IMG/VR virus record: IMGVR_UViG_2537561979_000007
Coordinates: 1 to 27,323 of that record
Source of the DNA: a virus
Taxonomy: Duplodnaviria > Heunggongvirae > Uroviricota > Caudoviricetes
Length of the DNA: 27,323 bases
Direction: 5' to 3' (one strand)
Positions 1,369 through 22,024 of the stretch are shown one piece after another (the stretch's first letter is position 1; every line of letters starts with the position of its first letter). Position numbers and translations under genes: made by a program. Under the pieces are notes generated by a model, which saw nothing but the letters and a program-made list of their open reading frames with translations, searched no databases and was not told the origin of the DNA.

Positions 1369-1444
1369 GCCGATATAGCTCAGTTGGTAGAGCAGCGCAT
1401 TCGTAATGCGAAGGTCGTAGGTTCGACTCCTATTATCGGCACCA
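1369..1444 (+). tRNA. thrW: tRNA-Thr (anticodon CGU), 76 nt ending in CCA
   Basis: GCCGATATAGCTCAGTTGGTAGAGCAGCGCATTCGTAATGCG...GGTTCGACTCCTATTATCGGCACCA read directly; cloverleaf with CGT in the anticodon loop and a GGTTCGA T-arm. Confidence 0.95.
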
Positions 1445-1458
1445 TTTAAATCAATAAG

Positions 1459-2622
1459 TTACACATCATTAGTACCTTCCTTATTTTTTGACTGGGACAA
1501 ATTTGGGACCGATGGGTTCAGGATCGAGTCTATTTGCTGTGCGTGTTCGGTAAGGTGATTAGGTGCAAGGTGAGCATATCGACGAACCATTTCGATAGAC
1601 TCCCAGCCTCCCATTTCCTGTAACACTGACAACGGGACTCCGGCTTGAACCAGCCAACTTGCCCAGGTGTGTCTCAAGTCGTGAAATCTGAAATCATCAA
1701 TACCAGCCCGTCTCAGCGCCGCTTTCCAGGCTGTGTTTGCGTCATACCGCATCTTCCTTACTGTTGGCGCTTTCGTTCCGTCTGGTTTGGTACAGCTTTC
1801 CTTGTACACAAATACCCAACGGTGATGATTCCCGATTTGTTTTTTCAATACGCGACATGCAGTATCATTCAGCGCAACGCCAATTGCGCGGTTTGATTTA
1901 CTCTCTTCCGGGTTTATCCATGCCACCCGGCGCTGCATATCTATTTGTTGCCATTCAAGGTTGATGATGTTCGAGCGTCTTAAGCCTGTTGCCAGTGCAA
2001 ATTCAACAACAGACTTTAATGGCTCCGGACATTCATCAATCAGCCTTTGTGCTTCATGGGGCTCCAGCCAGCGGATCCGTTTATTCTTTGGTTGAGGCAC
2101 TTTAATAATTGGTGCCTTATCCAGCATTTTCCATTCACGCTCTGCGGCTCTTAGTAGGGCCTTTATAAATGAAAGATGCGTAGCCTTCGTTGCAACGGAC
2201 GCTGGTTTTGGCGTGTATCCTGGAACAGGTTTCCCTTTTTTTCTGCATGCTTCTGCCCTGAGTTTCCAGTTTTCCTCATGACGCCGGTTCGTCATTTTCT
2301 GCATTGCTGAATAAATTTTTGATTCAGTAATGTCTCTTAGTTGCATTCCTGCGAAATGTTGAAGCCAGAATCCGATCCGGCTTTTGTCATCGTCCAGTGA
2401 TTTTTTATGTGCTTTCTCTTCAAGCCACCTGACACACGCTTCCTCGAACGTTATATCAGGTATTTCACCAAGTTTGCTGACCCGCCATGCTTCAGCCTTT
2501 AGCTTGTCATGGAGTTCTGTCGCCTGCCTTTTGTCCTTTGTTCCAAGAGACTGTTTAAATCTTTTACCGTTCGGCAATGTGAAACTGGCGTACCATATTT
2601 CACCTCTGCGGAAGAGTGACAT
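1459..2622 (-). CDS. int: Phage tyrosine integrase (387 aa)
   Basis: C-terminal HDLRHTWAS...RRYAHL catalytic region typical of tyrosine recombinases; N-terminal arm-binding-like [14 protein letters not shown]; sits next to the tRNA. Confidence 0.9.
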
Positions 2623-2849
2623 TTTCTTTCCTCTGTTATGCCATCACCCGCGCTCACCTGGACAGTATGCAGCGGAGACTGAAGAGCCGCAATGCAGGCT
2701 TGTCGTGTTGTGAGGTAAGGAGATTTATTCTTAGTGGGATCTTTGCGTGTTGCCTGAAGACGCCCTGTGCGTATCCAGTTAATGGCAGTCGGTCTGGATA
2801 TCTTGAGAAAATGACAGGCCTCATCGAGTGTGAGGCTGTATGGCTCCAT
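2499..2849 (-). CDS. xis: Excisionase-like DNA-binding protein (Xis/AlpA-type), overlapping the int start
   Basis: In-frame ATG at 2847-2849 preceded by GAGGTG; N-terminal [31 protein letters not shown] resembles Xis/AlpA winged helix; TAATG overlap with the upstream gene. The 124-nt overlap with int is unusually long. Confidence 0.6.
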
Positions 2850-3154
2850 TATTTCACCTCTTGCTGTGACATTGTTGAAAAATGGATACCAGCTCGTTGC
2901 TGCCAGACGATCCAACCGAGAGTCATATCCCATGCCATGTATTCGTTATCGCCGTTTTTTGCTCTCCGACGATCTACTAAGTCACCGAAACGCTTTTCCA
3001 TGAATAATTCATAGGCTTCGCGTTCATCTGGCTCTACTTCCAGAGATACGAGTGCGATTTCATAAGCACGGCGCTCAATATCGTCTCGAACCTCTAGGCT
3101 GCTGATTCGTTCTTTGATTTCTTTAATCAGTTCTTTATTGGTAAATGTGGTCAT
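2849..3154 (-). CDS. Early-left hypothetical protein, YfdT-like (101 aa)
   Basis: ORF in the early-left operon; size and position match the YfdP-Q-R-S-T block of CPS-53-type prophages. Confidence 0.65.
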   Translation of the reverse strand: MTTFTNKELIKEIKERISSLEVRDDIERRAYEIALVSLEVEPDEREAYELFMEKRFGDLVDRRRAKNGDNEYMAWDMTLGWIVWQQRAGIHFSTMSQQEVK

Positions 3155-3516
3155 TATGCTCCAGCCTCCGGTGCTTTTGGCATTACTGCCCAGTGAGTGA
3201 TATTGACGTTTTCAAGGTCCCCGACCTGAAATGTCCACTGCCATTCTCCGGTTTCTTTTTGTCCCCAGGTGTACCAGAGAGAACGCCAGCCAATCAGCCA
3301 GCCTTCTCCATTAGCATCAAATAACAGAACACTTTCATTTGCTGGTGGCAGTTCAGCTGACACTGGTATTATTTTGTTTTCCAGTGCCGCACATTTAGCT
3401 TCAAGCGCGTCGAATTTACGTACCAGGTATTCAGCATCTGTTTCATTCACTTTCAGATCTCGCGGTACACATTTCCCGCGAAGAAACCCTTCCATTTCGA
3501 AAACATTCATGCGCAT
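3154..3516 (-). CDS. Early-left hypothetical protein, YfdS-like (120 aa)
   Basis: ORF overlapping its neighbours; size and order consistent with YfdS. Confidence 0.65.
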   Translation of the reverse strand: MRMNVFEMEGFLRGKCVPRDLKVNETDAEYLVRKFDALEAKCAALENKIIPVSAELPPANESVLLFDANGEGWLIGWRSLWYTWGQKETGEWQWTFQVGDLENVNITHWAVMPKAPEAGA

Positions 3517-4043
3517 TTGCGTAACTCCGATAACTCGTTGAAGCGTTCCATAAACATCCCGTAGGCATGGCCCGGTGCAAGTGGAATCACGTTGAACATC
3601 TCTGTTGCCGGGATACCTTCCAGTACAGGCCAGAAAGAGCCATCATCAAGCCCGAGATCGCGGCGTTCGGTTGCCAGCATGATGAGATCGGCATATTTCA
3701 CGGGCGTGCTCATAGCCTGAGGTAACCCGTATTTCTCACGGATTACGGCGTCTATTTTTTCTTCCATCCGTTTATAGTCAGGAAGGAGGCGTTTCAGTGG
3801 TGCGGGGATGTCCTGGCAATACGCTTCTGTTGCATCATGCATTAATGCTTCAAAAGCAAATTCCTGCGGTACCAGCATGCTGCAAAGCACCGCATGTTGG
3901 GCTACGCTATAGAAGTGTGAAAGGTGACCTGCAAAGCGGCAGATATTTGAAAGGGAAACCGCGATATCGTTAATAACGATGTCGTCTTTATTTATCTTGT
4001 CATAATAAAAATGCTTCCCGGAAAAAGTTTTAATAAATGACAT
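3507..4043 (-). CDS. yfdR: HD-domain phosphohydrolase (YfdR-like 5'-deoxynucleotidase family), 178 aa
   Basis: H...HD metal-binding motif (RFAGHLSH...LMHDATE); start chosen at MSFIKTF (ATG 4041-4043) with GGAG 7 nt upstream; the track ORF begins 9 codons earlier. Confidence 0.78.
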   Translation of the reverse strand: MSFIKTFSGKHFYYDKINKDDIVINDIAVSLSNICRFAGHLSHFYSVAQHAVLCSMLVPQEFAFEALMHDATEAYCQDIPAPLKRLLPDYKRMEEKIDAVIREKYGLPQAMSTPVKYADLIMLATERRDLGLDDGSFWPVLEGIPATEMFNVIPLAPGHAYGMFMERFNELSELRKCA

Positions 4044-4170
4044 TTTGTTCTCCACGTATATGCACTGCACCGCGCTGAATTCTGGTAAAAGGAAGCCCTC
4101 ACCATCCGGTGATTATTGAGTTAATTACGCTTCCATAAATGCCCCCGCAGGGGCATTTGCAGTAATGAAA

Positions 4171-4995
4171 TCAGGCGGTGAAAGTACCAATAAAGGTTTC
4201 TACTTTGCTGTTTTTGAATTTCTCAACAAGCAGATCACGAAATTCGTTAGCCATTTCTTCCTGCACCGCTTCCAGCTGAATAATGCGCAGAACCAGTACA
4301 GGACGATCGCCAGTGATAATGCTGAGGCGTAATTTAAACGGACGTTCTTTCAGACCTTCAAACGGAACGCATTTAAATTCAAATGCCACTGGCATAATGT
4401 CTTTGGTCTTCGCTTCGACAGACTCCATCAGGGAGCGTTTGCCGCTGAAGTCATTATCTTCAAAATCAGCGGTCTGGTTCGCTTCAATTGTGATTTTACG
4501 GATCGCCGCAGCCGCTTTGGTTGCCTGAATGGCGTCACCATTAGCATCAAAGCCCACAAGGTAGTCGGCCCAGTCTTCAATCCATTCTGCCAGTGACTTC
4601 TGGGAGTTACGCTCGCCGTTAACAGACAACAGGGTAGAGAACGGTGCTGTCTTTTTCAGTTTGAGAGTGGCGGTGTTATCTGCGTGACCTGGTTCATCAA
4701 TAGTCCCCAGGTTAAGCACACTGACGGCTTGCATATTATCGGCATCGATAAAGCAGCGGGTGCCTTCATCTGCAAGATCTTTAGAATAACGGGTAAAGTC
4801 ATCGATGCTGGCAGTGGAAAGCGCGCCACGGAAACGGAAGCGATTTAAATTAAATTTTTCCAGATCATGAATGCGGAAATTTTCAGGTAATGCCACTGCG
4901 TCGGCACCAATCTTACTGATAATTTCATTAACACCCTGAGCAGAAATAAGGGCATGGATTTGATTAATTGCGGTTGCGTCTAAGTTCTGAGACAT
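4171..4995 (-). CDS. yfdQ: YfdQ-like (DUF2303-type) phage protein, 274 aa
   Basis: Full ORF; sequence and length recognised as YfdQ-like; sits between the YfdP-like and YfdR-like genes. Confidence 0.75.
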
Positions 4996-5060
4996 AATAA
5001 GTCCTCACTATACAAAGATATTCAGTGATGAGATAAATAATCAGTTTATTAAGAACGATA

Positions 5061-5423
5061 TTAACGACCTGCTGCGCGGAGTTTTCCGTCAGGTTCACCG
5101 GCAAGAGTCAGTAATTGTCCCTGGTCTTCCTGCAGAATAGTCAGGCGACCACCGCGATTGACATACATCGGCGTTTCGGTAGTGTCTTCTTCGGAAATTT
5201 TCCCGCGGTTAGTTGGGCGAACATATGAGAGTTTGTGTTTGATTTTCACACGGTTCTCATCAAATGGTTCAATTTCCAGGTTGAGCGAGACCTTACCTTT
5301 GGTTTTCGTGTTCATCACACCGGAAGCGACTTCACTGAGAACTGCGCCGATTTTGGTTTCAAATACGCCGCCGTCCAGCTCCCCGATAAATGCCTGTACA
5401 TCAGTACTGCGTTCGCTAGCCAT
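5061..5423 (-). CDS. Early-left hypothetical protein, YfdP-like (120 aa)
   Basis: Start taken at MASERSTD (ATG 5421-5423) with GAGGAG 6 nt upstream; the longer track ORF (to 5744) has a junk-like Pro/Arg-rich N-terminal extension. Confidence 0.65.
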   Translation of the reverse strand: MASERSTDVQAFIGELDGGVFETKIGAVLSEVASGVMNTKTKGKVSLNLEIEPFDENRVKIKHKLSYVRPTNRGKISEEDTTETPMYVNRGGRLTILQEDQGQLLTLAGEPDGKLRAAGR

Positions 5424-5895
5424 TTTGCTGCTCCTCATCATATCGACCCTGCAAGGTCGGTTGGTTTCTCCACAAAACAGAGAAGAACACCTGCGGTGGC
5501 AGCCGCCCGGATGGATTGGGTTATGAGCCCGTCGTCCGGTGATGCTCTTCTCTGTTTTGTAAAAAGAACGGTACCAGCCGGAAGCAAGGGTACAAGCTGG
5601 TGGTACCGCCAGGACTACACACAGCATAAAGTTGTGGTGCCGGGTGCCTCCCTGTGCCTGGCGAAGGTTGCACACCAGGCGGGTGGGTATCCACAGAAGG
5701 TCGACTGTCAGCCTCAACCTTAACCCGCGTGCGCTGAGCCGCATTCACCACAACGCTAAGGATTCTCTCTGGTTGAAAATGCTTAGCTGTTATGTGCCTG
5801 CTTTTAGCCACATCAGGCGAGGTGGACCTAGTTATTCCCCAACAACAAGGATTTGGTTAATCTGGATATCCCCAACAACTAGCTGAGTATTCAAC

Positions 5896-6417
5896 GTGAT
5901 AGCTGAACTGTCTGCGGCTATGGCCGCTATAAAGGAGACTGCCGGTCTTGCTAAGGTTATTAATGACGCGAAAACGGATGCAGAAGTTAAAGCTGCAACC
6001 ATTGAACTCCAGAACAAACTAATCACGCTTCAGGCAGAATGCTTCTCTCTTGGCGATGCGATCCGCCTTCGTGATGAAGAGGTGATGCATCTCAAAGCAA
6101 AAATTGCAGAGTTTGAAGATTTTTGTGCCAAGGTAGAAGGATATGTCCTTGATCAGCTTGACTCTGGTGCTTTTGTTTACTCTAAAAATGAAATTGTGAG
6201 TGGAAAAGAAATAACTGTGCATCTGTGCCCACTTTGTTATTCCAAAAATATAAAATCGATACTTCATCCGCTTCCAGTAGGTAAAACTTCTCATTTTCTT
6301 ACAAGCCGTTGCCTTCACTGTGAAAATAAATTTCTTATGGAAAAAAATCCGATGTACGAACGACCAAGATCATTACGTGAGTTGGGGCGAGATCTGAATT
6401 CGCCTTGGATTCCTTAA
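5896..6417 (+). CDS. Hypothetical coiled-coil protein with C-terminal Cys4 zinc-ribbon-like motif (CPLC...CLHC), 173 aa
   Basis: ORF on the opposite strand to the surrounding early-left genes; own intrinsic terminator 40 nt downstream; start is GTG at 5896 or ATG at 5917, neither with a clear SD. Confidence 0.55.
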   Translation: MIAELSAAMAAIKETAGLAKVINDAKTDAEVKAATIELQNKLITLQAECFSLGDAIRLRDEEVMHLKAKIAEFEDFCAKVEGYVLDQLDSGAFVYSKNEIVSGKEITVHLCPLCYSKNIKSILHPLPVGKTSHFLTSRCLHCENKFLMEKNPMYERPRSLRELGRDLNSPWIP

Positions 6418-6445
6418 ATCTTGCATTGGTTGGATGATACCCAGA

Positions 6446-6457
6446 TTGTTAAAGAGC
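6446..6457 (-). promoter_or_regulatory. boxA-like element (GCTCTTTAACAA) on the leftward transcript; candidate nutL
   Basis: Reverse complement of 6446-6457 is an exact match to the rrn/lambdoid boxA core as I recall it (GCTCTTTAACAA), about 190 nt downstream of the OL operators and next to a hairpin. Confidence 0.4.
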
Positions 6458-6459
6458 TA

Positions 6460-6483
6460 AGCGTCCTGTAGGGCGCTTTTTTG
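6460..6483 (+). terminator. Intrinsic terminator after the 5896..6417 gene
   Basis: Hairpin AGCGTCCTGTAGGGCGCT followed by TTTTTT. Confidence 0.5.
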
Positions 6484-6655
6484 TTGCTAACGAATCATCC
6501 TGGACTTCATATGCCCCAGGCGGCTACTTCGTGGGCGTCCTGCCTGTTCGTTTTTGACATTTACTGACCGCTTACGACACATGCACCGTGCACCGTGTTG
6601 CAACCAGATTTTGTTGTAATCCTGTAGTTGGTCTGGAACAAAAGATAAAATTAAA

Positions 6656-6692
6656 TTGCGAGATATGCAAGTGGTGTTTGCGAGATATGCAA
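6656..6692. promoter_or_regulatory. Putative OL operators: two copies of TTGCGAGATATGCAA (6656-6670, 6678-6692)
   Basis: Two identical 15-bp sites with inverted TTGC/GCAA ends, 22 bp centre to centre, same architecture as the sites between cI and cro; TTGCAT -35-like hexamer on the minus strand overlaps them. Confidence 0.5.
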
Positions 6693-6746
6693 AATGATGG
6701 GTAATAAAAAGCCACCTTTCAGTGGCCGATGGATGGGATATTGAGG

Positions 6747-7439
6747 TTAATTATGTCTCTTAAGGGTTTGCGACTGACTGATTAAGACCTTTCCAAAGAC
6801 CATGAATCGGTGTTCGTTTTCGCTAGTAATTCCCCATTCACGGTAAATCTGGTTATCAGAAATCACCAGCAGTTTGTCAGGAATCATTTGAAGTCTTTTA
6901 ACGTATATTTTGTCATCAAAACCAAAGACATATATACCATCACCATCAAACTGATTGATGCTGACATCAACGAAGATGAGATCTCCTGGCTCAATGGTTG
7001 GACACATACTGTCCCCACGAACGTTGATAACTTTGATGTGATTGGCCGGTCGTCCGCCGAACATTGATACAGCATTATCAGTTCTGTATTCGATGGCATG
7101 AATCACATCAATGACATCACCGCCCTGGATAAGGCCATTTCCCGCACTGGCACTGATATCCAGCATTTCAATACGGAACACATCCTTCACCTGCGCAACA
7201 TCCTCATTATTACTGTTTTTATATACAGTATTACTTTTGAGGGCAGAGGTAAAGAGATCAGCAATATCAACACCTAAGCTCTTGGCAATATTACTCAGTG
7301 TTTGTTCGGTAAATTGTTTTTGCTTACCCGTTTCTAAGCGCGAGATGTTCGCCGCATCTACTCCTATTGCTTCAGCGAGATCGGCGATTTTCATGTTCTT
7401 CGCTTGGCGAAGTTGTCTGACTCGGTTTCCTATGTTCAT
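6747..7439 (-). CDS. CI-like repressor: N-terminal HTH plus C-terminal S24 (LexA-like) peptidase domain, 230 aa
   Basis: HTH (MKIADLAEAIGVDAANISRLETG); S24 motifs GDSMCPTI (Ser) and KRLQ (Lys); divergent from a cro-like gene with operators between. Confidence 0.88.
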   Translation of the reverse strand: MNIGNRVRQLRQAKNMKIADLAEAIGVDAANISRLETGKQKQFTEQTLSNIAKSLGVDIADLFTSALKSNTVYKNSNNEDVAQVKDVFRIEMLDISASAGNGLIQGGDVIDVIHAIEYRTDNAVSMFGGRPANHIKVINVRGDSMCPTIEPGDLIFVDVSINQFDGDGIYVFGFDDKIYVKRLQMIPDKLLVISDNQIYREWGITSENEHRFMVFGKVLISQSQTLKRHN

Positions 7440-7459
7440 GCGTTTATTACATTTCTTTA

Positions 7460-7522
7460 TTGCGTGATAAGCAAATCAACTTGCGCAAAATAATTGCGTG
7501 AAATAACATGCATAACGCGCAA
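7460..7522. promoter_or_regulatory. Putative OR operator cluster (TTGCGTGATAAGCAA, TTGCGCAA, TTGCGTG...CGCGCAA) with PR/PRM
   Basis: Repeated TTGCG/CGCAA half-sites in the 97-bp cI-cro intergenic region; same half-site as the OL copies. Confidence 0.5.
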
Positions 7523-7536
7523 TATTTGGAGGGTAT

Positions 7537-7797
7537 ATGCAATCACCATTACGAAATGTGCGTAAGGCGCATGGTTTCACTTTGCAGCATGTTGCTGCGG
7601 GTGTTCAAGTCAATCCAGCGACATTGAGTCGTATTGAGAGGCTGGAGCAGATTCCATCTATCGAGCTTGCAGAACGTTTAGCCAATTTTTTTAAGGGTGA
7701 AGTCAGCGAAATGCAGATTCTTTATCCGGCACGTTTTCAATCTAGCCAAAACCAGAATGGGTTTAAACCACAGGAACAGGAGGTGAACCGTGGGTAA
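7537..7797 (+). CDS. Cro-like HTH regulator (86 aa)
   Basis: GGAGGG SD then ATG; HTH-like segment FTLQHVAAGVQVNPATLSRIE; divergent from cI. Confidence 0.72.
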   Translation: MQSPLRNVRKAHGFTLQHVAAGVQVNPATLSRIERLEQIPSIELAERLANFFKGEVSEMQILYPARFQSSQNQNGFKPQEQEVNRG

Positions 7798-8347
7798 GCA
7801 TCACTGGAAAGTAGAAAAACAGCCTGAGTGGTACGTGAAAGCTGTCAGAAAAACTATCGCAGCGTTGCCGGGTGGTTACGCTGAAGCAGCTGACTGGCTG
7901 GATGTAACAGAGAACGCATTATTTAACCGCCTTCGTGCCGATGGCGATCAGATTTTCCCGCTGGGATGGGCAATGATTTTGCAACGTGCTGGTGGAACTC
8001 ACTTCATTGCTGACGCTGTGGCGCAGTCTGCAAATGGCGTCTTTGTGTCTCTTCCTGACGTCGAGGATGTGGACAACGCCGATATTAACCAGCGTCTGCT
8101 GGAAGTCATTGAACAGATCGGCAGTTATTCAAAACAGATTCGTTCAGCAATCGAAGACGGTGTAGTGGAACCGCATGAGAAGACAGCAATTAACGACGAG
8201 CTGTATCTCTCAATTTCGAAGCTGCAGGAGCATGCAGCACTTGTCTACAAAATTTTTTGCATTTCAGAAAGTAATGACGCCCGCGAGTGTGCAGCTCCGG
8301 GCGTCGTGGCGTCGATTGCTTCTGGTTGTGGAGAAACTAACGCATGA
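7790..8347 (+). CDS. CII-like / YdaT-family regulatory protein (185 aa)
   Basis: GTG start 6 nt after AGGAGG, overlapping the cro stop; family assignment is by position and vague recollection only. Confidence 0.55.
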
Positions 8348-8682
8348 ACAGTTTAACAACACACTACCGTCGCTCGCAACTGATTGCGCTTCCTGTACCG
8401 GGTGGAAAAGCGAAGGTGGAATATTGCTATGCAGTGAATGTACCAGGTGACAGGGAAATTGTAACCCACAGCTTTGCAGAGTGGGCTGTGGGTGATTTCA
8501 ACCGGCAGAAGGAGACAGTCCTTTGCGACAAGTTAACCGCTGGTTCAAAGATCACTACGGAGTGCCCGTCAGAGTCATTCGTTGGGAGCCGGAAACACAA
8601 CGGGTTATCTACCTCCGCGAAGGTTATGAGCATGAATGCTTCAGTCCGCTCGAACAGTTTCGTCGTAAATTCAGGGAAATAG
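8344..8682 (+). CDS. Hypothetical protein (112 aa); 3' half overlapped by a more protein-like alternate frame ending at 8702
   Basis: ATGA overlap with the upstream gene; C-terminal half is low-complexity, while frame 0 (8496-8702) encodes ...[37 protein letters not shown].... Confidence 0.4.
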
Positions 8683-8691
8683 AGGTCGGTC

Positions 8692-9633
8692 ATGAGCACT
8701 AAATTAACCGGCTATGTATGGGATGGTTGCGCTGCATCAGGCATGAAGTTATCCAGCGTGGCAATTATGGCCCGCCTGGCTGATTTCAGTAATGACGAAG
8801 GTGTGTGCTGGCCATCAATTGAAACCATTGCCCGTCAGATTGGCGCGGGGATGAGTACCGTTAGAACGGCTATCGCACGGCTGGAAGCAGAAGGCTGGTT
8901 AACGCGTAAGGCGCGTCGCCAGGGTAACCGCAATGCGTCGAATGTTTATCAGCTTAACGTTGCGAAGCTTCAGGCAGCGGCATTTTCTCAACTGTCAGAT
9001 TCTGACCCGTCAAAATCTGACGCATCAAAATCTGACCCGTCAAAATTTGATGCGTCGAAATCTGGCAAAAAAGCGGGTTTTCACCCGTCAGAATCTGGCG
9101 GGGATCCGTCAGTAAAATCAAAACATGATCCGTCAGATAAAAAAACTTCTCGTCCGGACGCTTCGCAACCGGACACGCAGACGGCTGAACAGGAGTTTTT
9201 AACTCGCCATCCTGATGCGGTTGTATTCAGCCCTAAAAAGCGCCAGTGGGGAACGCAGGATGATTTGACCTGCGCACAGTGGCTCTGGAAAAAAATCATC
9301 GCCCTGTACGAGCAGGCCGCCGAATGTGACGGCGAGGTGGTTCGTCCCAAAGAACCGAACTGGACAGCCTGGGCAAACGAAATTCGCCTGATGTGTGTGC
9401 AGGATGGTCGTACTCACAAACAAATCTGCGAGATGTACAGCCGCGTCAGCCGCGATCCGTTCTGGTGCCGTAACGTGCTCAGCCCGTCGAAGCTGCGGGA
9501 AAAATGGGATGAGCTTTCCCTGCGCTTATCGCCGTCCGTCAGCACGTACACCGAAAAACGCGAAGACCCGTACTTCAAATCCAGTTACGACAACGTGGAC
9601 TACAGCCAGATCCCGGCAGGATTCAGGGGGTGA
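8692..9633 (+). CDS. Replication initiator (lambda O-like), N-terminal HTH, 313 aa
   Basis: GAGGT SD; HTH-like N-terminus (SSVAIMARLADFSNDEGVCWPSIETIARQIGAGMSTVRTAIARLEAEGWL); iteron-like DNA repeats inside the linker-coding region. Confidence 0.68.
   Translation: MSTKLTGYVWDGCAASGMKLSSVAIMARLADFSNDEGVCWPSIETIARQIGAGMSTVRTAIARLEAEGWLTRKARRQGNRNASNVYQLNVAKLQAAAFSQLSDSDPSKSDASKSDPSKFDASKSGKKAGFHPSESGGDPSVKSKHDPSDKKTSRPDASQPDTQTAEQEFLTRHPDAVVFSPKKRQWGTQDDLTCAQWLWKKIIALYEQAAECDGEVVRPKEPNWTAWANEIRLMCVQDGRTHKQICEMYSRVSRDPFWCRNVLSPSKLREKWDELSLRLSPSVSTYTEKREDPYFKSSYDNVDYSQIPAGFRG
8994..9135. repeat. Iteron-like direct repeats (CCGTCAAAATCTGA variants, about 12-14 bp period) inside the O-like gene; putative origin
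   Basis: At least six tandem, degenerate copies read directly (ccgtcaaaatctgac / gcatcaaaatctgac / ccgtcaaaatttgat / gcgtcgaaatctggc / ccgtcagaatctggc / ccgtcagtaaaatca). Confidence 0.5.
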
Positions 9634-9635
9634 GC

Positions 9636-9965
9636 ATGAGTCTTTTGAATGACGTTCAGAAATTCATTGAAGCCCATCCGGGGTGTACTTCCGGAGACAT
9701 TGCGGATGCTTTTGCAGGTTACTCACGGCAGCGCGTTCTGCAGTCAGCAAGCAAGTTACGTCAGAGTGGGCGTGTGGCTCACCGTTGTGAAGGAGATACA
9801 CGCAGACATTTCCCGCGCCTGACTGAGAGAGCGCAGGAGCCGGAACCACAACCAGTTCGTGAAACCAGACCTGTGCGCAATTTCTATGTCGGCACTAACG
9901 ATCCCCGGGTGATTTTGTGCCTGACTCGCCAGGCGGAAAAACTGGTCAGGGAGATGGCGGCATGA
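9636..9965 (+). CDS. Hypothetical small protein, possibly winged-helix DNA-binding (109 aa)
   Basis: ATG at 9636 after AGGGGG; ATGA overlap with the next gene; no confident family. Confidence 0.5.
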   Translation: MSLLNDVQKFIEAHPGCTSGDIADAFAGYSRQRVLQSASKLRQSGRVAHRCEGDTRRHFPRLTERAQEPEPQPVRETRPVRNFYVGTNDPRVILCLTRQAEKLVREMAA

Positions 9966-10288
9966 CGACGTTAACTCAATGCCAGCAGCAGGTGCTGGAT
10001 ATGCTGATTTCTTACCAGAAAGAACGTGGCTTCCCGCCAACCAATCAGGAGGTGGCAACCATGCTGGGATACCGTTCAGTGAATGCAGCGGTGGAGCATC
10101 TTCGCGCACTGGAGAAAAAAGGCGTCATCACGATAAAGCGTGGCGTGGCCCGGGGGATCACGCTTCATACCGCGGTGAAGGACGACGACAGCGAGGCGGT
10201 CGGGATCATCCGCGCACTGCTTGCCGGTGAGGAGAACGCCAGGTTGCGTGCAGTCCACTGGTTACATGAGAGAGGCCTGAAAGTATGA
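9962..10288 (+). CDS. LexA N-terminal DNA-binding-domain homolog lacking the peptidase domain (108 aa)
   Basis: LTQCQQQVLDMLISYQKERGFPPTNQEVATMLGYRSVNAAVEHLRALEKKGVITIKRGVARGITL aligns by eye with the LexA N-terminal winged helix; no Ser/Lys S24 domain follows. Confidence 0.68.
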   Translation: MTTLTQCQQQVLDMLISYQKERGFPPTNQEVATMLGYRSVNAAVEHLRALEKKGVITIKRGVARGITLHTAVKDDDSEAVGIIRALLAGEENARLRAVHWLHERGLKV

Positions 10289-10674
10289 AGCTAATCCTGC
10301 CTTTCCCGCCCAGCGTGAACACGTACTGGCGACACCCCAACAAAGGGGCATTTTCTGGTAAGAGCCTGATAAGCGCGGCGGGGCGAAAATTTCAGAGCGC
10401 GGCGTGCGCAGCAATAGTTGAGCAGTTACGTCGTCTGCCAAAACCAACGTCGGCACCTGCTTCAGTGGAGATCGTGTTGTTTCCTCCAGATAACCGGATC
10501 CGCGATCTGGACAACTATAACAAGGCGCTGTTTGACGCCCTGACCCACGCGGGTGTGTGGGAAGACGACAGACAGGTGAAAAGAATGCTGGTTGAGTGGG
10601 GACCGGTTATCCCGAAAGGGAAGGTCGAGATCACTATCAGTAAGTATGAGAAACCGGCGGGTGCAGCCGCCTGA
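10285..10674 (+). CDS. rusA: Holliday-junction resolvase RusA (129 aa)
   Basis: RusA signature LPFPPSVNTYWRH ... RDLDNYNKALFDALTHAGVWEDD. Confidence 0.85.
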   Translation: MKLILPFPPSVNTYWRHPNKGAFSGKSLISAAGRKFQSAACAAIVEQLRRLPKPTSAPASVEIVLFPPDNRIRDLDNYNKALFDALTHAGVWEDDRQVKRMLVEWGPVIPKGKVEITISKYEKPAGAAA

Positions 10675-10693
10675 TTAAGAGGAGAAACGAAGT

Positions 10694-11491
10694 ATGAATA
10701 ATCTGATGGTCATTGATGGTATTGAAGTTCGTCGTGATGCTTATGGGCGTTACAGCCTGAACGATCTGCACAGGGCTGCCGGTTCTCTGGATAAGCATAA
10801 GCCTGCATTCTGGCTCCGCAATGAGCAAACTGAACGTTTAATAAGCGAGTTGCAGATTTGCAACTCGGTCAATATAGAGCCAGTTAACGTTATTCGTGGC
10901 GGAAATAACCAGGGGACGTATGTCTGCAAAGAACTGGTGTATGCCTATGCAATGTGGATCAGCCCGTCATTCCATCTGAAGGTGATCCGTATTTTCGATA
11001 TGGTAACCAGCACACCGGAAAAATTATCCGGGCAGGCTGCAGACAAGATGCAGGCTGGCGTGATCCTGCTGGACTTTATGCGCCGGGAATTAAACCTGTC
11101 TAACTCATCAGTGCTTGGAGCCTGTCAGAAGCTTCAGGAGGCTGTTGGCTTACCGAATCTGGCACCGCGCTATGCCATTGATGCTCCTGCTGACGCGCCT
11201 GATGGCTCAAGTCGCCCCACGCTGTCGCTGAGTGCACTGCTGAAACAGTATGGTATCCGCCTGACGGCTAATCAGGCATATCACCAGATGGCGAAGCTGG
11301 GGATCGTTGAACAACGTGAACGATACAGCCGTACCGCGATTAATAACATCAAAAAATTCTGGTCGCTGACGGCGAAAGGCTGCATGTTCGGCAAGAACAT
11401 CACCAGTCCGGCAAATCCGCGCGAGACGCAGCCACACTTCTTCGAATCCCGATTCCCTGAGCTGTTAAAGCTGCTCGATACCGTTCATTGA
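10694..11491 (+). CDS. KilA-N domain protein (265 aa)
   Basis: AGGAG SD; N-terminal KilA-N-like region (DLHRAAGSLDKHKPAFWLRNEQT...GTYVCKELVYAYAMWISPSFHLKVIRIFD). Confidence 0.75.
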   Translation: MNNLMVIDGIEVRRDAYGRYSLNDLHRAAGSLDKHKPAFWLRNEQTERLISELQICNSVNIEPVNVIRGGNNQGTYVCKELVYAYAMWISPSFHLKVIRIFDMVTSTPEKLSGQAADKMQAGVILLDFMRRELNLSNSSVLGACQKLQEAVGLPNLAPRYAIDAPADAPDGSSRPTLSLSALLKQYGIRLTANQAYHQMAKLGIVEQRERYSRTAINNIKKFWSLTAKGCMFGKNITSPANPRETQPHFFESRFPELLKLLDTVH

Positions 11492-11492
11492 G

Positions 11493-12488
11493 GTGACCGT
11501 GAGAGCACTACTGACCCCTGAAATTGCCCCGCGTATGGGGATCGTATTGTTCAGGCCTGGTTCAGAGCTGATGCCCTTGTTTATGCAGGGGCGTGTCCTG
11601 CTGGAGCCTGAGCCGGAACGTTATTCATCTTTCGCCAGTGGTGCCGTTCCGGCGGCATCACAACCACTGGCGGATGATCCTGCCATTCGGGCCGTGTTCC
11701 GCAATGAGGCAGTGATCCGTCGTGCTGGTGGCGTGGAATGTCTTGAAAGCTGGTTACTTCGTGAAAAAGGCTGCCAGTGGCCTCATTCCGACTGGCACAG
11801 CGAGAACATGACCACAATGCGACACGCGCCGGGCGCAATCCGTCTGTGCTGGCACTGCGATAACCAGCTGCGCGATCAGTTCACGGAACGGCTGGAATCA
11901 ATGGCAACGGATAACTGTGCCCGCTGGGTGTTATCTGTTGTGCGCCGTGATCTCGGTTTTGATGATAGTCACGTTGTGACAATGCCGGAACTGTGCTGGT
12001 GGCTGGTTCGTAATGACCTGGCGGATGCCTTACCGGAAAGTGCAGCCCGTAAGGCACTGAGATTACCGAAGCCTGTTGTGCCGTCTGTCACCCGGGAAAG
12101 TGACCTTGTGCCTTCGGTTCCTGCCACCAGCATCATCCAGGATAAGGCGAAAAAGGTGCTGGCGCTGAAAGTGGATCCGGAGTCGCCGGAGTCTTTTATG
12201 TTACGCCCAAAACGTCGCCGCTGGGTTAATGAAAAGTACACGCGCTGGGTTAAGACACAGCCGTGTGCATGTTGTGGAAAGCCCGCTGATGATCCCCACC
12301 ACCTGATAGGTTACGGTCAGGGTGGAATGGGAACAAAAGCGCATGACCTTTTTGTGTTGCCTTTGTGCAGAAAGCATCACGACGAGCTGCATGCGGATAC
12401 CGTGGCATTTGAAGAGAGGTATGGCTCCCAGCTGGAGCTGATATTTCGTTTTATCGATCGTGCGCTGGCAACTGGCGTGCTGGCCTGA
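11493..12488 (+). CDS. DUF968-type phage protein with C-terminal Cys/His HNH-like motif (331 aa)
   Basis: C-terminal CACCGKPADDPHHL...CRKHHDELH; Nin-region position. Start codon uncertain (GTG at 11493 or 11499). Confidence 0.62.
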   Translation: MTVRALLTPEIAPRMGIVLFRPGSELMPLFMQGRVLLEPEPERYSSFASGAVPAASQPLADDPAIRAVFRNEAVIRRAGGVECLESWLLREKGCQWPHSDWHSENMTTMRHAPGAIRLCWHCDNQLRDQFTERLESMATDNCARWVLSVVRRDLGFDDSHVVTMPELCWWLVRNDLADALPESAARKALRLPKPVVPSVTRESDLVPSVPATSIIQDKAKKVLALKVDPESPESFMLRPKRRRWVNEKYTRWVKTQPCACCGKPADDPHHLIGYGQGGMGTKAHDLFVLPLCRKHHDELHADTVAFEERYGSQLELIFRFIDRALATGVLA

Positions 12489-12505
12489 TTTTGTGGAGAA
12501 AGTTG

Positions 12506-12868
12506 ATGCGTGATATTCAAATGGTTCTGGATCGTTGGGGAGCATGGGCGGCGAGTGATAGTTCAGGAGTAGACTATTCTCCTATAGCTGCTGGGTTTAA
12601 AGGGCTTCTTCCCTATACAAGCAAAACACGTCAGGCTTGTTCAGATAGTGATGCATTAATTATTGAAGGTTGTCTTGCTCTTCTTAAAAAGCGAAAACCG
12701 TACGAGCATTCTTTGATTGTGGCCCATTACCTGTATGGCATCTCGAAAAGAAAGCTTGCAAGAGCTCGCAAAAAAGATGAGAAATTGATACGTATAGAGA
12801 TACAGATGGCTGAAGGGTTTATTGATGGATGCCTTTCAATGCTGGATGTTAAACTTGAAATGGAGTAG
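12506..12868 (+). CDS. Late-gene antiterminator Q, short QuuD-like type (120 aa)
   Basis: MRDIQMVLDRWGAWAAS...IAAGFKGLLP matches my recollection of short Q antiterminators; GGAG 8 nt before ATG 12506; position after the Nin block. Confidence 0.72.
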   Translation: MRDIQMVLDRWGAWAASDSSGVDYSPIAAGFKGLLPYTSKTRQACSDSDALIIEGCLALLKKRKPYEHSLIVAHYLYGISKRKLARARKKDEKLIRIEIQMAEGFIDGCLSMLDVKLEME

Positions 12869-12873
12869 AAAAA

Positions 12874-12893
12874 AGGGCATTTCTGCCCTTTTT
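12874..12893. terminator. Bidirectional intrinsic terminator between Q and the convergent cassette
   Basis: AGGGCA-TTTC-TGCCCT hairpin flanked by AAAAA on one side and TTTTT on the other. Confidence 0.5.
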
Positions 12894-13335
12894 AAATGTG
12901 GGGGAGTATCCAGTTTACTTTTCTCCATGTAAAGGCAAAAGTTATTACTGAAATGATAAGAAGAGATAAAGATTCGATAATTAAAATAAATTCTATTTTT
13001 TCTCCATGTAACAATGTCTTTTCATTGGCAAACATTGCTATCAAAGCAATAACGCATGCCGTAATTAAAGATGCACCTGCGGTTAATAGATTTACAATAA
13101 TAACTTGAAGTATGTTGTTGTTTTTTAATGCTTTTATTATTCCATTTGAGTTTTCGCTAGCAGCACTAAAAATTGATATTGTGGCTAAAATAAAACCAAA
13201 TAAAATACCGGATACAGTTGAAATAACCCCGGAGGCTGTAAGTATGTCAGCATGCCCCATCTGAGGGATATACCTCAGTAGGAACAAGGTGCAAAAAACA
13301 CTTACAATCAGGTTTCTTAAGTATTTCAATAACAT
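12892..13335 (-). CDS. Small integral membrane protein, about four predicted TM helices (147 aa); second gene of the AT-rich cassette
   Basis: Four long hydrophobic stretches; AAGAAGG SD; separated by 3 nt from the upstream gene; visibly AT-rich. Confidence 0.62.
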   Translation of the reverse strand: MLLKYLRNLIVSVFCTLFLLRYIPQMGHADILTASGVISTVSGILFGFILATISIFSAASENSNGIIKALKNNNILQVIIVNLLTAGASLITACVIALIAMFANEKTLLHGEKIEFILIIESLSLLIISVITFAFTWRKVNWILPHI

Positions 13336-13338
13336 ATC

Positions 13339-14279
13339 CTATACCTTCTTTTTGCTGATATCGTATTGCTTAAGGTATTCATTGTTATCAATTTTAGCAG
13401 AAATCATGGCTTGCAGAACATCACTATCAGTGCCATAACCATTAACGGTATATATGTTTTTTTCTGAAATGAGTACCTGATCAAGAAGACTTTGTTCAAC
13501 GGTATTTTTGGGCTGTGTTACTGCCGCTTTTTTTACAATTCCCGGCATTTTTTCAAGGAGTTCTTTAATACCATCCTTAACGAGATCTGATAAATAACCT
13601 TTGACTTTTACTCTCCCTGATGCACGTCCCCTTAGATTTAACTTGAGACGTGTTCCACCCAGCCCTACCATCATATTTACCAGTTCCTTAGAAAATGAAC
13701 TATTTAGCTGGTAATTTGTTGCATCAAAGTTCCTGGGAGCAGCCAGGACAATATCACAACTTCTCAAAGTACTTCCTGTTTCAAGTAGCTCTTTGACGCT
13801 CTCTTTTTTCCAGATGGCTTGGAATGAAAAGTTATTTCCAGGATTACCACTCTGGCTGTAAAGCAGATAAGCTAAATCCGATTCTTTCGGCCCAAGATGA
13901 TTTTGAGTTAATATTAAAATATCACTATCGTAATAATATAAAAAATAGGTTCTTTCGACTATGTATTTTTTATCATCTAGTGGTATGTTGTGCTCATTCC
14001 AGTATTCATCACCAATATAAGGAAGGAGATACTCTTCTCGTGAGCATGACATGTAGCCGAAGAAATATTTAGCTTTTGTATCTTTATTTATAAAAGCTAT
14101 TTTTAACTTTTTATTTCTATAGATGGTATCAAAATGATTATTCGTAACGGTTACGCAAGTATTATACAGATTTTCAATTGCTTGCTTAGCAACTGAATGG
14201 CTGCGGATAGTCCCAGAACTGCTGGTGTAAAAACCAATTTTAAGTTTTTTTGTTTCTTTGATTGCGCAATAGTAGCCAT
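13339..14279 (-). CDS. Hypothetical cytoplasmic protein, first gene of the AT-rich cassette; apparent frameshift at an A7 tract near the 5' end (313 aa if the tract were A8)
   Basis: ATG at 14277-14279 with AAGG SD opens an 11-codon frame that runs into an A7 run (plus-strand T7 at 14245-14251); the 237-aa body (track ORF 13339..14052) is open in the adjacent frame all the way up to that run. Confidence 0.5.
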
Positions 14280-14555
14280 GTTAAACCTTAGTATACTAAT
14301 AATTTCTTATGGATCTTTTTTTATATGGCTTTAATTTAGCAAAAAAAATTACCGCGGTCCGCAAATTTTATCTTAATCTGTTAAGAGTGGTTACTTCGCC
14401 ACACAGCTTAAACCCGCCGTCGAGCGGTTTTTTGTACCTGTAAACCTGGTGCAGTACAGTAAACACGCTGGTGGTCGTGAATACTGACTTTTTATCTTGC
14501 TGGCTTTTTAGACAAGAGTTATTGGTATGTCATGTTAACCAGAAGGGAAAAAGAC

Positions 14556-14759
14556 ATGCTAAAACAGCAAGATATGACAGAAACCGCCGCCGCAGTCCTT
14601 CATTTCTTACCTGCTGACAAGTGGGTAACGCCACGCACGATGACGAGAACTACCGGAGTAAGCGAAGCCCGGTGCCAGTTAATACTGACTCAGTTAGTTC
14701 TGGCGGGTCTGGCGAAGGATAACGGCGGGTACGGGAATAAATTCAGACGCTGCCAGTAA
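14556..14759 (+). CDS. Hypothetical small protein (67 aa from ATG 14556; track ORF begins at 14532)
   Basis: ORF upstream of the methyltransferase; GAAGGGA 8 nt before ATG 14556; no family recognised. Confidence 0.4.
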   Translation: MLKQQDMTETAAAVLHFLPADKWVTPRTMTRTTGVSEARCQLILTQLVLAGLAKDNGGYGNKFRRCQ

Positions 14760-14909
14760 TGGCGGTTTCCTGCTGTGAAAATGGGCGGCTGGTGGGTGTT
14801 GGTAGCACCTGCCAGCCATTCGCTCATGCTTACTGGTCACAAGCGAACCACGGCCCACTGCTTTAGCGCAAAAGCAGAGTGAGCCTACCAGAGTTACGCT
14901 TACTGATCC

Positions 14910-15962: not shown

Positions 15963-15969
15963 TTCTGGT

Positions 15970-15991
15970 GGCCACGTTGCGTGGCCTTTTT
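15970..15991 (+). terminator. Intrinsic terminator between the methyltransferase and holin (tR'-like position)
   Basis: Perfect 7-bp stem GGCCACG-TTG-CGTGGCC followed by TTTTT. Confidence 0.55.
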
Positions 15992-16038
15992 ATTTCCAAC
16001 ACAGCACCCGCAAATATCGCGAGGTGAGAGATGACGAA

Positions 16039-16374: not shown

Positions 16375-16377
16375 TTT

Positions 16378-16854: not shown

Positions 16855-16889
16855 GCAGAGTCACCGCGATTATCTTCAGACCCATACTG

Positions 16890-17369: not shown

Positions 17370-17395
17370 TTAGCCAGGTAACACAGTGTTATGAC

Positions 17396-17423
17396 AGCCC
17401 GCCGGTTCAGGCGGGCTTTTTTG
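17396..17423 (+). terminator. Intrinsic terminator after lom
   Basis: AGCCCGCC-GGTTCA-GGCGGGCT hairpin followed by TTTTTT. Confidence 0.7.
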
Positions 17424-17433
17424 TGGAGTGGAT

Positions 17434-20093: not shown

Positions 20094-20102
20094 GGGAGAC
20101 AA

Positions 20103-21172: not shown

Positions 21173-21179
21173 GGGTAGG

Positions 21180-21971: not shown

Positions 21972-22024
21972 AATGAGTAGCTAAAAAGATTTTTCGTTAT
22001 GTATTAATGTATCTGTCACTTATT

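What the first reader, a model, noticed from the sequence alone, without database searches (positions are those of the whole stretch)
5896..6484. Oppositely oriented gene embedded in the leftward early operon beside the immunity region
The 173-aa ORF (coiled-coil N-terminus, C-terminal CPLC...CLHC ribbon) is on the plus strand while all flanking early-left genes are on the minus strand, and it has its own intrinsic terminator. The slot next to cI is where lambdoid phages carry rexAB/sieB-type exclusion genes and where an N-like antiterminator is expected but was not found. Candidate lysogen-expressed moron (superinfection exclusion, defence or regulatory).
Basis: partly seen in the sequence, partly recalled or inferred. 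Interest (0 to 1): 0.5.

Follow-up and report, generated by a model that had tools for sequence, protein, structure and literature searches.

The report
Prophage Rip1-family pore-forming phage defence gene

Summary
The ORF (5896-6417, +, GTG start, 173 aa), its terminator (6459-6484) and its reversed orientation among minus-strand genes are all confirmed. Comparison with SfII and SfV bounds a 663-bp insert (5826-6488) between yfdP and cI of a thrW-integrated, SfV-like and apparently defective E. coli prophage.

The protein has no Pfam, NCBIfam or PADLOC match, but it is a clear homologue of Rip1 ('ring interacting pore 1'). A family profile hits PDB 9oox (phage HK446 Rip1 bound to T6 small terminase) at E=2.7e-20. 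The AlphaFold model (pLDDT 92) matches 9oox with Foldseek probability 1.00. It shares phrog_1244 with HK446 Rip1 and Pseudomonas JBD30 gp30. All four zinc-ribbon cysteines are invariant.

HK446 rip1 is likewise reversed inside the leftward early operon. The most likely function is therefore an abortive, pore-forming defence triggered by rings of phage small terminase or portal protein. Expression, trigger and phenotype of this allele (25-30% identical to the studied proteins) are inferred, not shown.

One side observation may be new. A roughly 100-nt upstream leader is better conserved than the gene, and it also precedes ECs1072-family genes in the same slot.

Novelty: new member of a known kind. 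Interest is modest.

The parts
5826..6488 (+). Insert that differs from the SfII and SfV genomes. It holds the distal leader (both repeats), the rip1-like ORF and the terminator.
   Evidence: blastn homology to SfII (L001) and SfV (L002) runs up to window 5825 and resumes at 6489. The stretch is 100% identical in E. coli WCHEC020031 and at least 80% covered in 367 of 5426 complete E. coli genomes.
5794..5825 (.). Conserved 32-bp block, gtGCCTGcttttagCCACatCAGGCgagGTGG, at the left edge of the variable slot. It contains two interleaved short inverted repeats.
   Evidence: The block is present upstream of rip1 in window, PhiR49_1, HK446, vB_EcoM-689R2 and IMG/VR loci, and also in SfII and SfV, which lack rip1. 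Of its cells, 98.5% are paired, against 13.6-47.5% in the slid controls. Two pairs show compensatory changes, in 1 and 3 sequences. Its function is unknown.
5837..5846 (+). Leader direct repeat 1, CCCCAACAAC.
   Evidence: The CCCC core and most other positions are conserved across 22 distinct upstream sequences. In HK446 and 689R2 both repeat copies are changed in concert to CCCCTACAG.
5858..5863 (+). TAATCT, a -10-like hexamer lying between the two repeats. It is a candidate promoter element only.
   Evidence: The aligned position reads TAAAAT in HK446 and TAATAT in 689R2. No -35 match is present, and the site was not reported by the promoter scan. This is inference.
5870..5879 (+). Leader direct repeat 2, CCCCAACAAC, 33 nt after repeat 1.
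   Evidence: In ECs1072-type loci the gene-specific sequence begins right after this repeat.
5896..6417 (+). rip1-like coding sequence, 173 aa, GTG start, with GAG at 5885-5887 as a weak Shine-Dalgarno.
5899..6132 (+). N-terminal helical half (helices aa 2-24 and 28-79), corresponding to the pore-forming helical part of Rip1.
   Evidence: AlphaFold2 model with pLDDT 92. Residues 1-24 are Ala/Gly-rich and mildly hydrophobic, as in HK446 Rip1 and JBD30 gp30. The role is taken from the review's description of Rip1 (PMC13434031).
6145..6345 (+). C-terminal beta-rich domain (aa 84-150) with a four-cysteine zinc ribbon: C111 at 6226-6228, C114 at 6235-6237, C139 at 6310-6312, C142 at 6319-6321. This is the presumed ring-binding sensor.
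   Evidence: The cysteines are invariant in A1 and A2. The domain aligns to 9oox chains L and M. In several alleles it is the most divergent part, at 51-60% aa identity against 83-100% for the helices.
6459..6484 (+). Intrinsic terminator of the insert.
6656..6692 (.). Context: two copies of the operator TTGCGAGATATGCAA (OL), marking the leftward early promoter, which converges on rip1.
   Evidence: Repeat family D1 also has a copy in the cI-cro intergenic region at 7460-7474. The promoter position, about 6642-6670 on the minus strand, was read by eye and is an inference.
6747..7439 (-). Context: cI-type repressor (HTH plus Peptidase_S24).
   Evidence: In 62 of 80 IMG/VR rip1 loci a repressor homologue lies on the opposite strand within 2.5 kb downstream.

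Best explanation
The gene encodes a Rip1-family ('ring interacting pore') protein, a single-protein, prophage-borne abortive-infection defence.

Proposed course of events:
1. In the lysogen, where cI holds the convergent leftward promoter shut, the gene is transcribed from its conserved leader, and the protein sits harmlessly in the cytoplasm.
2. When another phage infects and makes its ring-shaped packaging proteins late in infection (small terminase or portal), the C-terminal zinc-ribbon/beta domain binds around that ring.
3. This templates a roughly 12-mer of Rip1 whose N-terminal helices bundle into a pore in the inner membrane.
4. The cell is permeabilised before virions are finished, so no progeny are released.

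Shown here: family membership by sequence, fold and PHROG; conserved cysteines; insert anatomy; purifying selection; a position equivalent to that of the characterised HK446 gene.

Taken from the literature on HK446 and Pseudomonas Rip1: the trigger, stoichiometry, pore formation and phenotype.

Inferred for this allele: expression in the lysogen, which phages trigger it, and silencing by antisense early transcription after induction.
For: Homology to Rip1:
- A profile of 43 family members hits PDB 9oox chain L, 'ring interacting pore 1 (Rip1)', at E=2.7e-20 over residues 5-151. The single sequence gives E=1.8e-9.
- BLASTP gives 25% identity to HK446 Rip1 (E=2e-13) and 30% to JBD30 gp30 (E=3e-20), both nearly full length.
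- The AlphaFold2 model (pLDDT 92) finds only 9oox at E<=1e-3 in the PDB. That entry is titled 'Escherichia phage HK446 Rip1 in complex with the Enterobacteria phage T6 small terminase'. Foldseek probability is 1.00 and TM is 0.56/0.73.
- The window protein, HK446 Rip1, JBD30 gp30, and the 689R2 and PhiR49_1 homologues all match phrog_1244 above all else, and for the last four it is the only family matched.
- Four cysteines are invariant.

Position and orientation:
- HK446 rip1 is on the opposite strand inside the PL operon, just past N.
- JBD30 gp30 is reversed between gp29 and the large terminase gene.
- The 689R2 and PhiR49_1 homologues are reversed next to the repressor.

Literature:
- The mechanism of Rip1 is summarised in PMC13434031 section 5, PMC12908700 and PMC13601566.
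- JBD30 gp30 is listed as a phage-resistance moron in PMC11445458.

Selection:
- dN/dS is 0.17-0.26.
- The putative sensor domain is more variable than the helices, as expected for a part that tracks variable phage proteins.
Against: - Identity to the two studied proteins is only 25-30%, so trigger specificity and even activity could differ.
- No sigma-70 promoter was detected, and I have no transcript data for this locus.
- A simple hydrophobic-moment test did not show the N-terminal helix to be significantly amphipathic. The same is true of HK446 Rip1 and JBD30 gp30 under that test.
- The primary paper (Patel et al. 2026) could not be read. The mechanism rests on a review, a meeting report and the PDB title.
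- The host prophage appears defective, so the gene could be unexpressed cargo.
Confidence: 0.75

Rival explanations
1. It is a classical superinfection-exclusion protein that blocks entry or injection of phage DNA, rather than acting late and killing the cell.
For: The JBD30 genome table in PMC11445458 describes the homologue gp30 as a moron that 'blocks phage genome injection', citing Tsao et al. 2018. The slot next to cI is where exclusion genes are often found.
Against: - The protein has no predicted transmembrane segment (maximum Kyte-Doolittle 19-residue mean 1.06) and no signal peptide.
- The later work summarised in PMC13434031 reports escape mutations in portal and small terminase, a 12:11 Rip1-terminase complex and liposome leakage. 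These are late, cytoplasmic events.
- The solved complex is with a small terminase.
Confidence: 0.06
2. The gene is intact but silent or decaying cargo of a defective prophage and has no present function in this host.
For: The prophage appears to lack terminase, portal, capsid and tail-shaft genes. No consensus promoter was found.
Against: - The insert is 100% identical in another strain and is present in 367 of 5426 complete E. coli genomes.
- dN/dS is 0.17-0.26.
- The leader is conserved above the level of synonymous sites.
- A defence gene is exactly what tends to be retained in domesticated prophages. That last point is general knowledge, not tested here.
Confidence: 0.1
3. It is a zinc-ribbon regulatory protein, binding nucleic acid or acting as an anti-repressor, that takes part in the prophage's own lysis-lysogeny control.
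For: It has a coiled helix plus a CxxC...CxxC ribbon next to the immunity region. There are weak sub-threshold hits to zinc-ribbon regulators: CdsZ at E=0.11 and McsA-like 8wtb at E=0.24.
Against: - Those hits are far below threshold, whereas the Rip1 matches are highly significant.
- Homologues sit in quite different places, such as between the terminase genes of Pseudomonas Mu-like phages. That fits a portable accessory gene, not a core regulator.
- The slot holds unrelated genes in sister phages.
Confidence: 0.03

Closest known systems
Rip1 of Escherichia phage HK446 (HK446_037, AFH20665.1; PDB 9oox, complex with T6 small terminase)
   Same: - Same PHROG, phrog_1244.
- Near full-length homology, with the same fold in the model.
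- The four cysteines are conserved.
- Similar size, 164 against 173 aa.
- Both lie in an E. coli temperate-phage genome, on the strand opposite to the leftward early operon, preceded by the same conserved block and a two-repeat leader.
   Different: - Only 25% identical.
- HK446 has about 10 extra N-terminal residues and an ATG start.
- Its leader repeats read CCCCTACAG instead of CCCCAACAAC.
- It lies downstream of N in a lambda/HK97-like phage, rather than directly beside the operators and cI of an SfV-like prophage.
- The trigger of the window allele is unknown.
JBD30 gp30 / DMS3 / D3112 orf25 homologues of Pseudomonas casadabanviruses, the Pseudomonas Rip1 type
   Same: 30% identity over 152 residues. 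Same PHROG. Reversed orientation relative to the neighbours. Described as a phage-resistance moron.
   Different: [quoted passage not shown] Equating gp30 with the published Pseudomonas Rip1 is my inference from position and homology. The paper itself was not readable.
Tab/anti-Tab of Pseudomonas phage JBD26 (PMC10884400)
   Same: A prophage-expressed, reversed moron that acts on a late virion-assembly component of the invader, with death of the infected cell. It occupies the slot that rip1 occupies in JBD30-type phages.
   Different: Tab is an unrelated 83-residue protein. It blocks tail assembly through the tape-measure protein, does not form a pore, and is paired with an anti-Tab gene. No partner gene is evident beside the window gene.
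Lambda RexAB (and SieB), the classical immunity-region exclusion genes
   Same: They work alike in outline. Each is carried next to the repressor, expressed from the prophage, and aborts infection by compromising the membrane. This rests on established knowledge of RexAB, not on a test here.
   Different: There is no sequence relationship (no Pfam match). Rip1 is a single soluble protein rather than a sensor plus membrane channel, has no transmembrane segment, and is transcribed against cI rather than with it.

Membership tests
Rip1 (ring interacting pore 1) anti-phage defence family | Significant, near full-length sequence homology to an experimentally characterised Rip1 | tested here: met
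   The profile against 9oox_L gives E=2.7e-20 over residues 5-151. phmmer gives E=1.8e-9. BLASTP to HK446_037 gives 25% identity and E=2e-13. BLASTP to JBD30 gp30 gives 30% and E=3e-20.
Rip1 (ring interacting pore 1) anti-phage defence family | Same remote-homology cluster as the characterised members | tested here: met
   The window protein (E=2.7e-52), HK446 Rip1 (2.2e-53) and JBD30 gp30 (2.7e-61) all match phrog_1244 over its whole length.
Rip1 (ring interacting pore 1) anti-phage defence family | Two-part fold: an N-terminal long helical part and a C-terminal ring-contacting domain | tested here: met
   The AlphaFold2 model has pLDDT 92, helices 2-24 and 28-79, and a beta domain at 84-150. 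Foldseek finds 9oox_M at probability 1.00, TM 0.56/0.73, 123 columns, and nothing else at E<=1e-3.
Rip1 (ring interacting pore 1) anti-phage defence family | Conserved CxxC...CxxC cysteines in the C-terminal domain | tested here: met
   C111, C114, C139 and C142 are invariant in A1, which includes JBD30 and 689R2, and in A2 with 43 sequences. They align to the cysteines of HK446 Rip1. That this motif defines the family is my reading of the alignments, not a published criterion I could check.
Rip1 (ring interacting pore 1) anti-phage defence family | Amphipathic N-terminal helix able to enter the membrane | tested here: inconclusive
   Residues 1-24 are Ala/Gly-rich and mildly hydrophobic (H 0.29-0.40), but the helical hydrophobic moment is no higher than in shuffles (0.19 against 0.16; 36% of shuffles reach it). 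HK446 Rip1 and JBD30 gp30 give similar hydrophobicity and moment profiles.
Rip1 (ring interacting pore 1) anti-phage defence family | Encoded in a prophage as a separate, usually reversed, accessory gene | tested here: met
   The 5826-6488 insert has its own terminator and lies between minus-strand genes. The same arrangement is seen in HK446, JBD30, 689R2 and PhiR49_1. A repressor lies on the opposite strand downstream in 62 of 80 IMG/VR loci.
Rip1 (ring interacting pore 1) anti-phage defence family | Harmless alone; oligomerises (about 12-mer) around phage small terminase or portal rings; forms a pore; abolishes phage yield | not testable with these tools
   Known for HK446 and Pseudomonas Rip1 only through PMC13434031, PMC12908700 and the 9oox title.
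RexAB / SieB immunity-region exclusion proteins | Sequence membership in those families, and membrane-spanning segments for RexB and SieB | tested here: not met
   No Pfam-A family reached even E=1e-3. There was no PADLOC hit of note and no transmembrane-like segment.
Moron in the sense of Juhala et al. 2000: an added gene with its own promoter and terminator | Discrete insertion relative to sister genomes, own terminator, own promoter | tested here: inconclusive
   The insertion boundaries and terminator are met. The promoter is not demonstrated: there is only a -10-like hexamer between conserved repeats.

The most novel reading that the evidence does not exclude
The roughly 100-nt leader is a portable control module. 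It consists of a block with two interleaved stems plus two 10-nt direct repeats around a -10-like hexamer, and it serves whichever defence gene occupies this prophage slot (Rip1 alleles or ECs1072-family proteins). On this reading the module keeps the gene on in the lysogen. Convergent early transcription from the de-repressed leftward promoter switches it off on induction, which gives the prophage self-immunity without an anti-defence gene. It would follow that the ECs1072 family is an uncharacterised anti-phage defence.
Probability: 0.2. Interest if true: 0.55.

Novelty: new member of a known kind. Interest (0 to 1): 0.3.

Why it matters
It puts a name and a testable mechanism on a 'hypothetical protein' (WP_000559913.1) carried by about 7% of complete E. 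coli genomes.

It shows that Rip1-type genes in enterobacteria cluster beside the prophage repressor in many alleles whose putative sensor domain varies. That is a ready-made series for mapping which terminase or portal rings each allele recognises.

The shared leader points to a common expression module for alternative cargo genes in one prophage hotspot, which could be used to find further defence genes.

For phage therapy and phage-host prediction, such alleles are candidate determinants of late-stage infection failure that receptor-based predictions miss.

Tried and rejected
- Pfam, NCBIfam and PADLOC scans of the protein gave nothing usable. The hits were coiled-coil noise only: DUF641 at E=0.0036, and a typeIV_DinG fragment at E=0.023.
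- The sigma-70 promoter scan over 5000-7700 returned no site. My hand searches for -35/-10 pairs in 5770-5895 found only a -10-like TAATCT with a poor -35, so I do not claim a promoter.
- Rfam at gathering threshold found only tRNA-Thr. At the E-value threshold the leader itself matched nothing. The neighbouring STnc100 hit is sub-threshold and on the other strand.
- The hydrophobic-moment test of the N-terminal helix was not significant.
- Patel et al. 2026 (doi 10.1038/s41586-025-10075-1) and Tsao et al. 2018 (PMC6199475) are not held. Searches for phrog_1244, HK446 with Rip1, and ECs1072 added almost nothing.
- The Fc02 'overlapping exclusion genes' paper concerns a different phage group and different genes, so I dropped it.
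- The RNAalifold consensus of the leader gave only the first stem of the block plus a weak second helix with no covariation. The interleaved-stem reading rests on two compensatory pairs only and is not established.
- The antisense ORF 6019-6318 (99 aa) inside the gene was set aside, because all conservation is in the plus-strand frame.

Full report
**Observation**

The window holds an ORF at 5896-6417 on the plus strand (173 aa, GTG start). RefSeq annotates the same gene, with the same length and start position, in other E. coli genomes as WP_000559913.1, 'hypothetical protein'.

Its neighbours are on the minus strand. To the left are yfdP (5061-5423; the longer mechanical ORF to 5744 is an artefact), yfdQ (4171-4995) and an HD-domain yfdR-like gene. 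To the right is a cI-type repressor with HTH and Peptidase_S24 domains (6747-7439), followed by cro (7537-7797, +) and a CII-like gene.

A terminator-like hairpin with a T-run follows the ORF at 6459-6484. It folds at -15.6 kcal/mol, z = -2.2 against shuffles.

The ORF is a real gene:
- It matches a PHROG at E=2.7e-52.
- It has 167 close relatives in the 90%-clustered protein set.
- It has 808 relatives among 50%-identity cluster representatives.
- Its alleles evolve with dN/dS of 0.17-0.26.

**Setting**

proA and tRNA-Thr(CGT) at the left end, an integrase, and the yfdT-yfdP block place this in a thrW-integrated prophage of the SfV/SfII kind.

blastn against SfII and SfV shows homology up to window 5825 and again from 6489. 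The stretch 5826-6488 (663 bp) is thus a discrete insert. SfII and SfV carry unrelated fillers of about 500 bp in its place, and phiSTEC1575-Stx2k has small minus-strand ORFs there.

Two copies of TTGCGAGATATGCAA at 6656-6692 match a copy in the cI-cro intergenic region. This marks the left operator. The leftward early promoter must therefore fire from about 6640 towards the insert, convergent with the gene. The position of that promoter is my reading, not a tool result.

**Identity**

Pfam, NCBIfam and PADLOC give nothing. The following do identify the protein:
- tblastn against phage genomes finds relatives at 58% identity in the same slot of E. coli phages PhiR49_1 and PhiR29, at 45% in Klebsiella phages, and at about 30% in Pseudomonas Mu-like phages (DMS3, JBD30, D3112 orf25, MP38).
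- A profile built from 43 relatives hits one solved structure, PDB 9oox chain L, 'ring interacting pore 1 (Rip1)', at E=2.7e-20. The single sequence gives E=1.8e-9.
- The AlphaFold2 model (pLDDT 92; helices 2-24 and 28-79, then a beta domain at 84-150) finds only 9oox in the PDB at E<=1e-3. That entry is titled 'Escherichia phage HK446 Rip1 in complex with the Enterobacteria phage T6 small terminase'. Foldseek probability is 1.00 and TM is 0.56/0.73.
- BLASTP identity is 25% to HK446 Rip1 and 30% to JBD30 gp30.
- All of these proteins fall in phrog_1244.
- The four cysteines C111, C114, C139 and C142 are invariant across the family alignments.

**What Rip1 does (from papers, not tested here)**

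A 2026 review (PMC13434031, section 5) summarises Patel et al., Nature 651:1060:
- Rip1 is a prophage protein found between the terminase genes of a P. aeruginosa prophage.
- It is harmless alone.
- Escape mutants map to the portal (Pseudomonas phages) or the small terminase (E. coli phages).
- Twelve Rip1 subunits encircle an 11-mer small terminase ring.
- The N-terminal part is an amphipathic helix and the C-terminal half contacts the ring.
- The complex forms a pore that leaks liposomes and perforates cells, causing premature lysis.
- Relatives are widespread in proteobacteria, mostly in prophages.

A meeting report and a 2026 Nature Communications paper agree on these points. The JBD30 genome table lists gp30 (164 aa) as a resistance moron, with an older attribution to blocked DNA injection. 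The same terminase slot holds the unrelated Tab/anti-Tab pair in JBD26.

**Position parallels**

In HK446 the characterised gene (HK446_037) lies on the opposite strand within the leftward early operon just after N. In vB_EcoM-689R2 and PhiR49_1 the homologue is reversed beside the repressor. In JBD30 it is reversed within the late operon.

Among 80 IMG/VR loci with a homologue, 62 have a cI/LexA-type repressor on the opposite strand within 2.5 kb downstream. The same rip1 allele is found with at least three immunity types.

**Most likely mechanism for this gene**

By homology, the protein waits in the cytoplasm of the lysogen. Its zinc-ribbon/beta domain binds rings of small terminase or portal made late by an invading phage. 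The templated oligomer inserts its N-terminal helices as a pore, and the infection aborts.

- Shown: homology, fold, conserved motif, insert anatomy, purifying selection.
- Literature-based: trigger, stoichiometry, pore.
- Inferred for this allele: expression, trigger range, and the idea that convergent early transcription after induction dampens the gene.

Two observations fit the model. In several alleles the C-terminal domain is much more divergent than the helices, at 51-60% against 83-100% aa identity. Also, the resident prophage appears to lack terminase, portal, capsid and tail-shaft genes: holin and endolysin are followed directly by a truncated lom and tail-fibre genes. Self-triggering is therefore not an issue here.

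Three points weigh against over-confidence. Identity to the studied proteins is 25-30%. No consensus promoter was found. My hydrophobic-moment test of the N-terminal helix was not significant, for this protein and for the two studied ones alike.

**The leader**

About 100 nt upstream of the start codon are conserved across 22 distinct loci. The elements are:
- a 32-bp block (5794-5825) with two interleaved short inverted repeats;
- two direct repeats, CCCCAACAAC, at 5837-5846 and 5870-5879;
- TAATCT at 5858-5863, lying between the repeats;
- GAG, followed by the GTG start.

The leader is better conserved than the coding sequence: 93% against 65% nt in one allele, 91% against 68% in another, and 66% against 52% for HK446. 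In HK446 and 689R2 both repeat copies read CCCCTACAG, a concerted change. The block's pairs hold in 98.5% of cells, with two compensatory pairs, which is weak evidence.

A scan of IMG/VR for the repeat module was capped at 120 stretches. It found 83 loci with both block and repeats. About half carry a Rip1 homologue right after the module. At least 33 instead carry a 144-148-aa ECs1072-family protein (NCBIfam NF033230, function unknown), in the same yfdP...cI slot and with the same immunity types.

SfII and SfV keep only the block, followed by other small plus-strand ORFs. The leader therefore looks like a shared expression module for alternative cargo. I could not find this described, but I could not read the primary Rip1 paper either.

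**Verdict**

The gene is an untested, divergent member of an already described family, so the novelty class is 'new member of a known kind'. The insert is present in 367 of 5426 complete E. coli genomes.

Interest is modest at 0.3, because the founding paper already reports wide distribution in prophages. The leader/cargo observation is the only part that may be new.

Noticed in passing
window 5559-5782 (-): There is a sub-threshold but full-length Rfam match to the prophage sRNA family STnc100 (RF02076; 35.4 bits against a gathering score of 47; E about 4e-6; model positions 1-206). It lies in the GC-rich stretch between yfdP and the rip1 leader. PGAP calls this stretch a 'frameshifted hypothetical' pseudogene. 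A 2026 preprint relates STnc100 to the PasD sRNAs of pathogenic E. coli prophages.
   Followed up: partly
window 5794-5895; loci L091-L208: The leader (conserved block plus two CCCCAACAAC repeats) precedes Rip1 alleles in some prophages. In others it precedes a 144-148-aa ECs1072-family protein (NCBIfam NF033230, function unknown), in the same yfdP...cI slot. It behaves as a shared expression module with exchangeable cargo. ECs1072 itself is detectably expressed in uninduced E. coli O157 Sakai (PMC2241611), but I did not check that Sakai carries this leader.
   Followed up: partly
window 5794-5825: The 32-bp block GCCTG..CCAC..CAGGC..GGTGG has two interleaved stems, in pseudoknot order. Compensatory changes occur in 1 and 3 of 22 sequences. 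It marks the left edge of the variable slot even in phages without rip1 (SfII, SfV). Which strand acts, and what the block does, are unknown.
   Followed up: partly
window 1369-21143: The prophage at thrW looks defective. The order is integrase through the Q-like antiterminator (12491-12868), a methyltransferase (14910-15962), holin (15943-16374) and endolysin (16378-16854). These are followed directly by a truncated lom (16980-17369) and tail-fibre genes (17428-21143). No terminase, portal, capsid or tail-shaft genes were found among the ORFs of 90 aa or more that I scanned.
   Followed up: partly
window 12892-14052 (-): A second reversed two-gene unit lies just after the Q-like gene. It encodes a 237-aa DUF6731 protein (phrog_7651) and a 147-aa protein (phrog_8552). 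Both are of unknown function and have no PADLOC hit. This may be another accessory or defence insert.
   Followed up: no
window 21168-26966: Several ORFs beyond the tail-fibre genes have no Pfam, PHROG or PADLOC match: 21168-21653 (-), 22025-22840 (-) and a 1083-aa ORF at 23715-26966 (+). A fourth, 22899-23228 (-), was scanned only against PHROGs and has no match there.
   Followed up: no
L002 (phage SfV, U82619.2), locus 3862-4107 (+): An unannotated plus-strand ORF of about 81 aa, with a good Shine-Dalgarno, starts right after the conserved block in SfV. The record instead annotates a minus-strand orf33 further right in the same slot (4025-4321), overlapping the end of this ORF. SfII has a 63-aa plus-strand ORF (SfII_36) in the equivalent place.
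   Followed up: no
window 6656-6692 and 7460-7510: The operator family is TTGCGAGATATGCAA, with two exact copies left of cI and related copies between cI and cro. The leftward early promoter is therefore convergent with rip1. The rip1 terminator has only a weak T-tract when read from the other side.
   Followed up: partly
IMG/VR loci L010-L089: Two rip1 alleles only 58% identical in protein occupy identical flanks (yfdP 100% identical, leader 93%) in E. coli prophages. Each is combined with three different repressor types. This indicates frequent recombination at this slot.
   Followed up: partly
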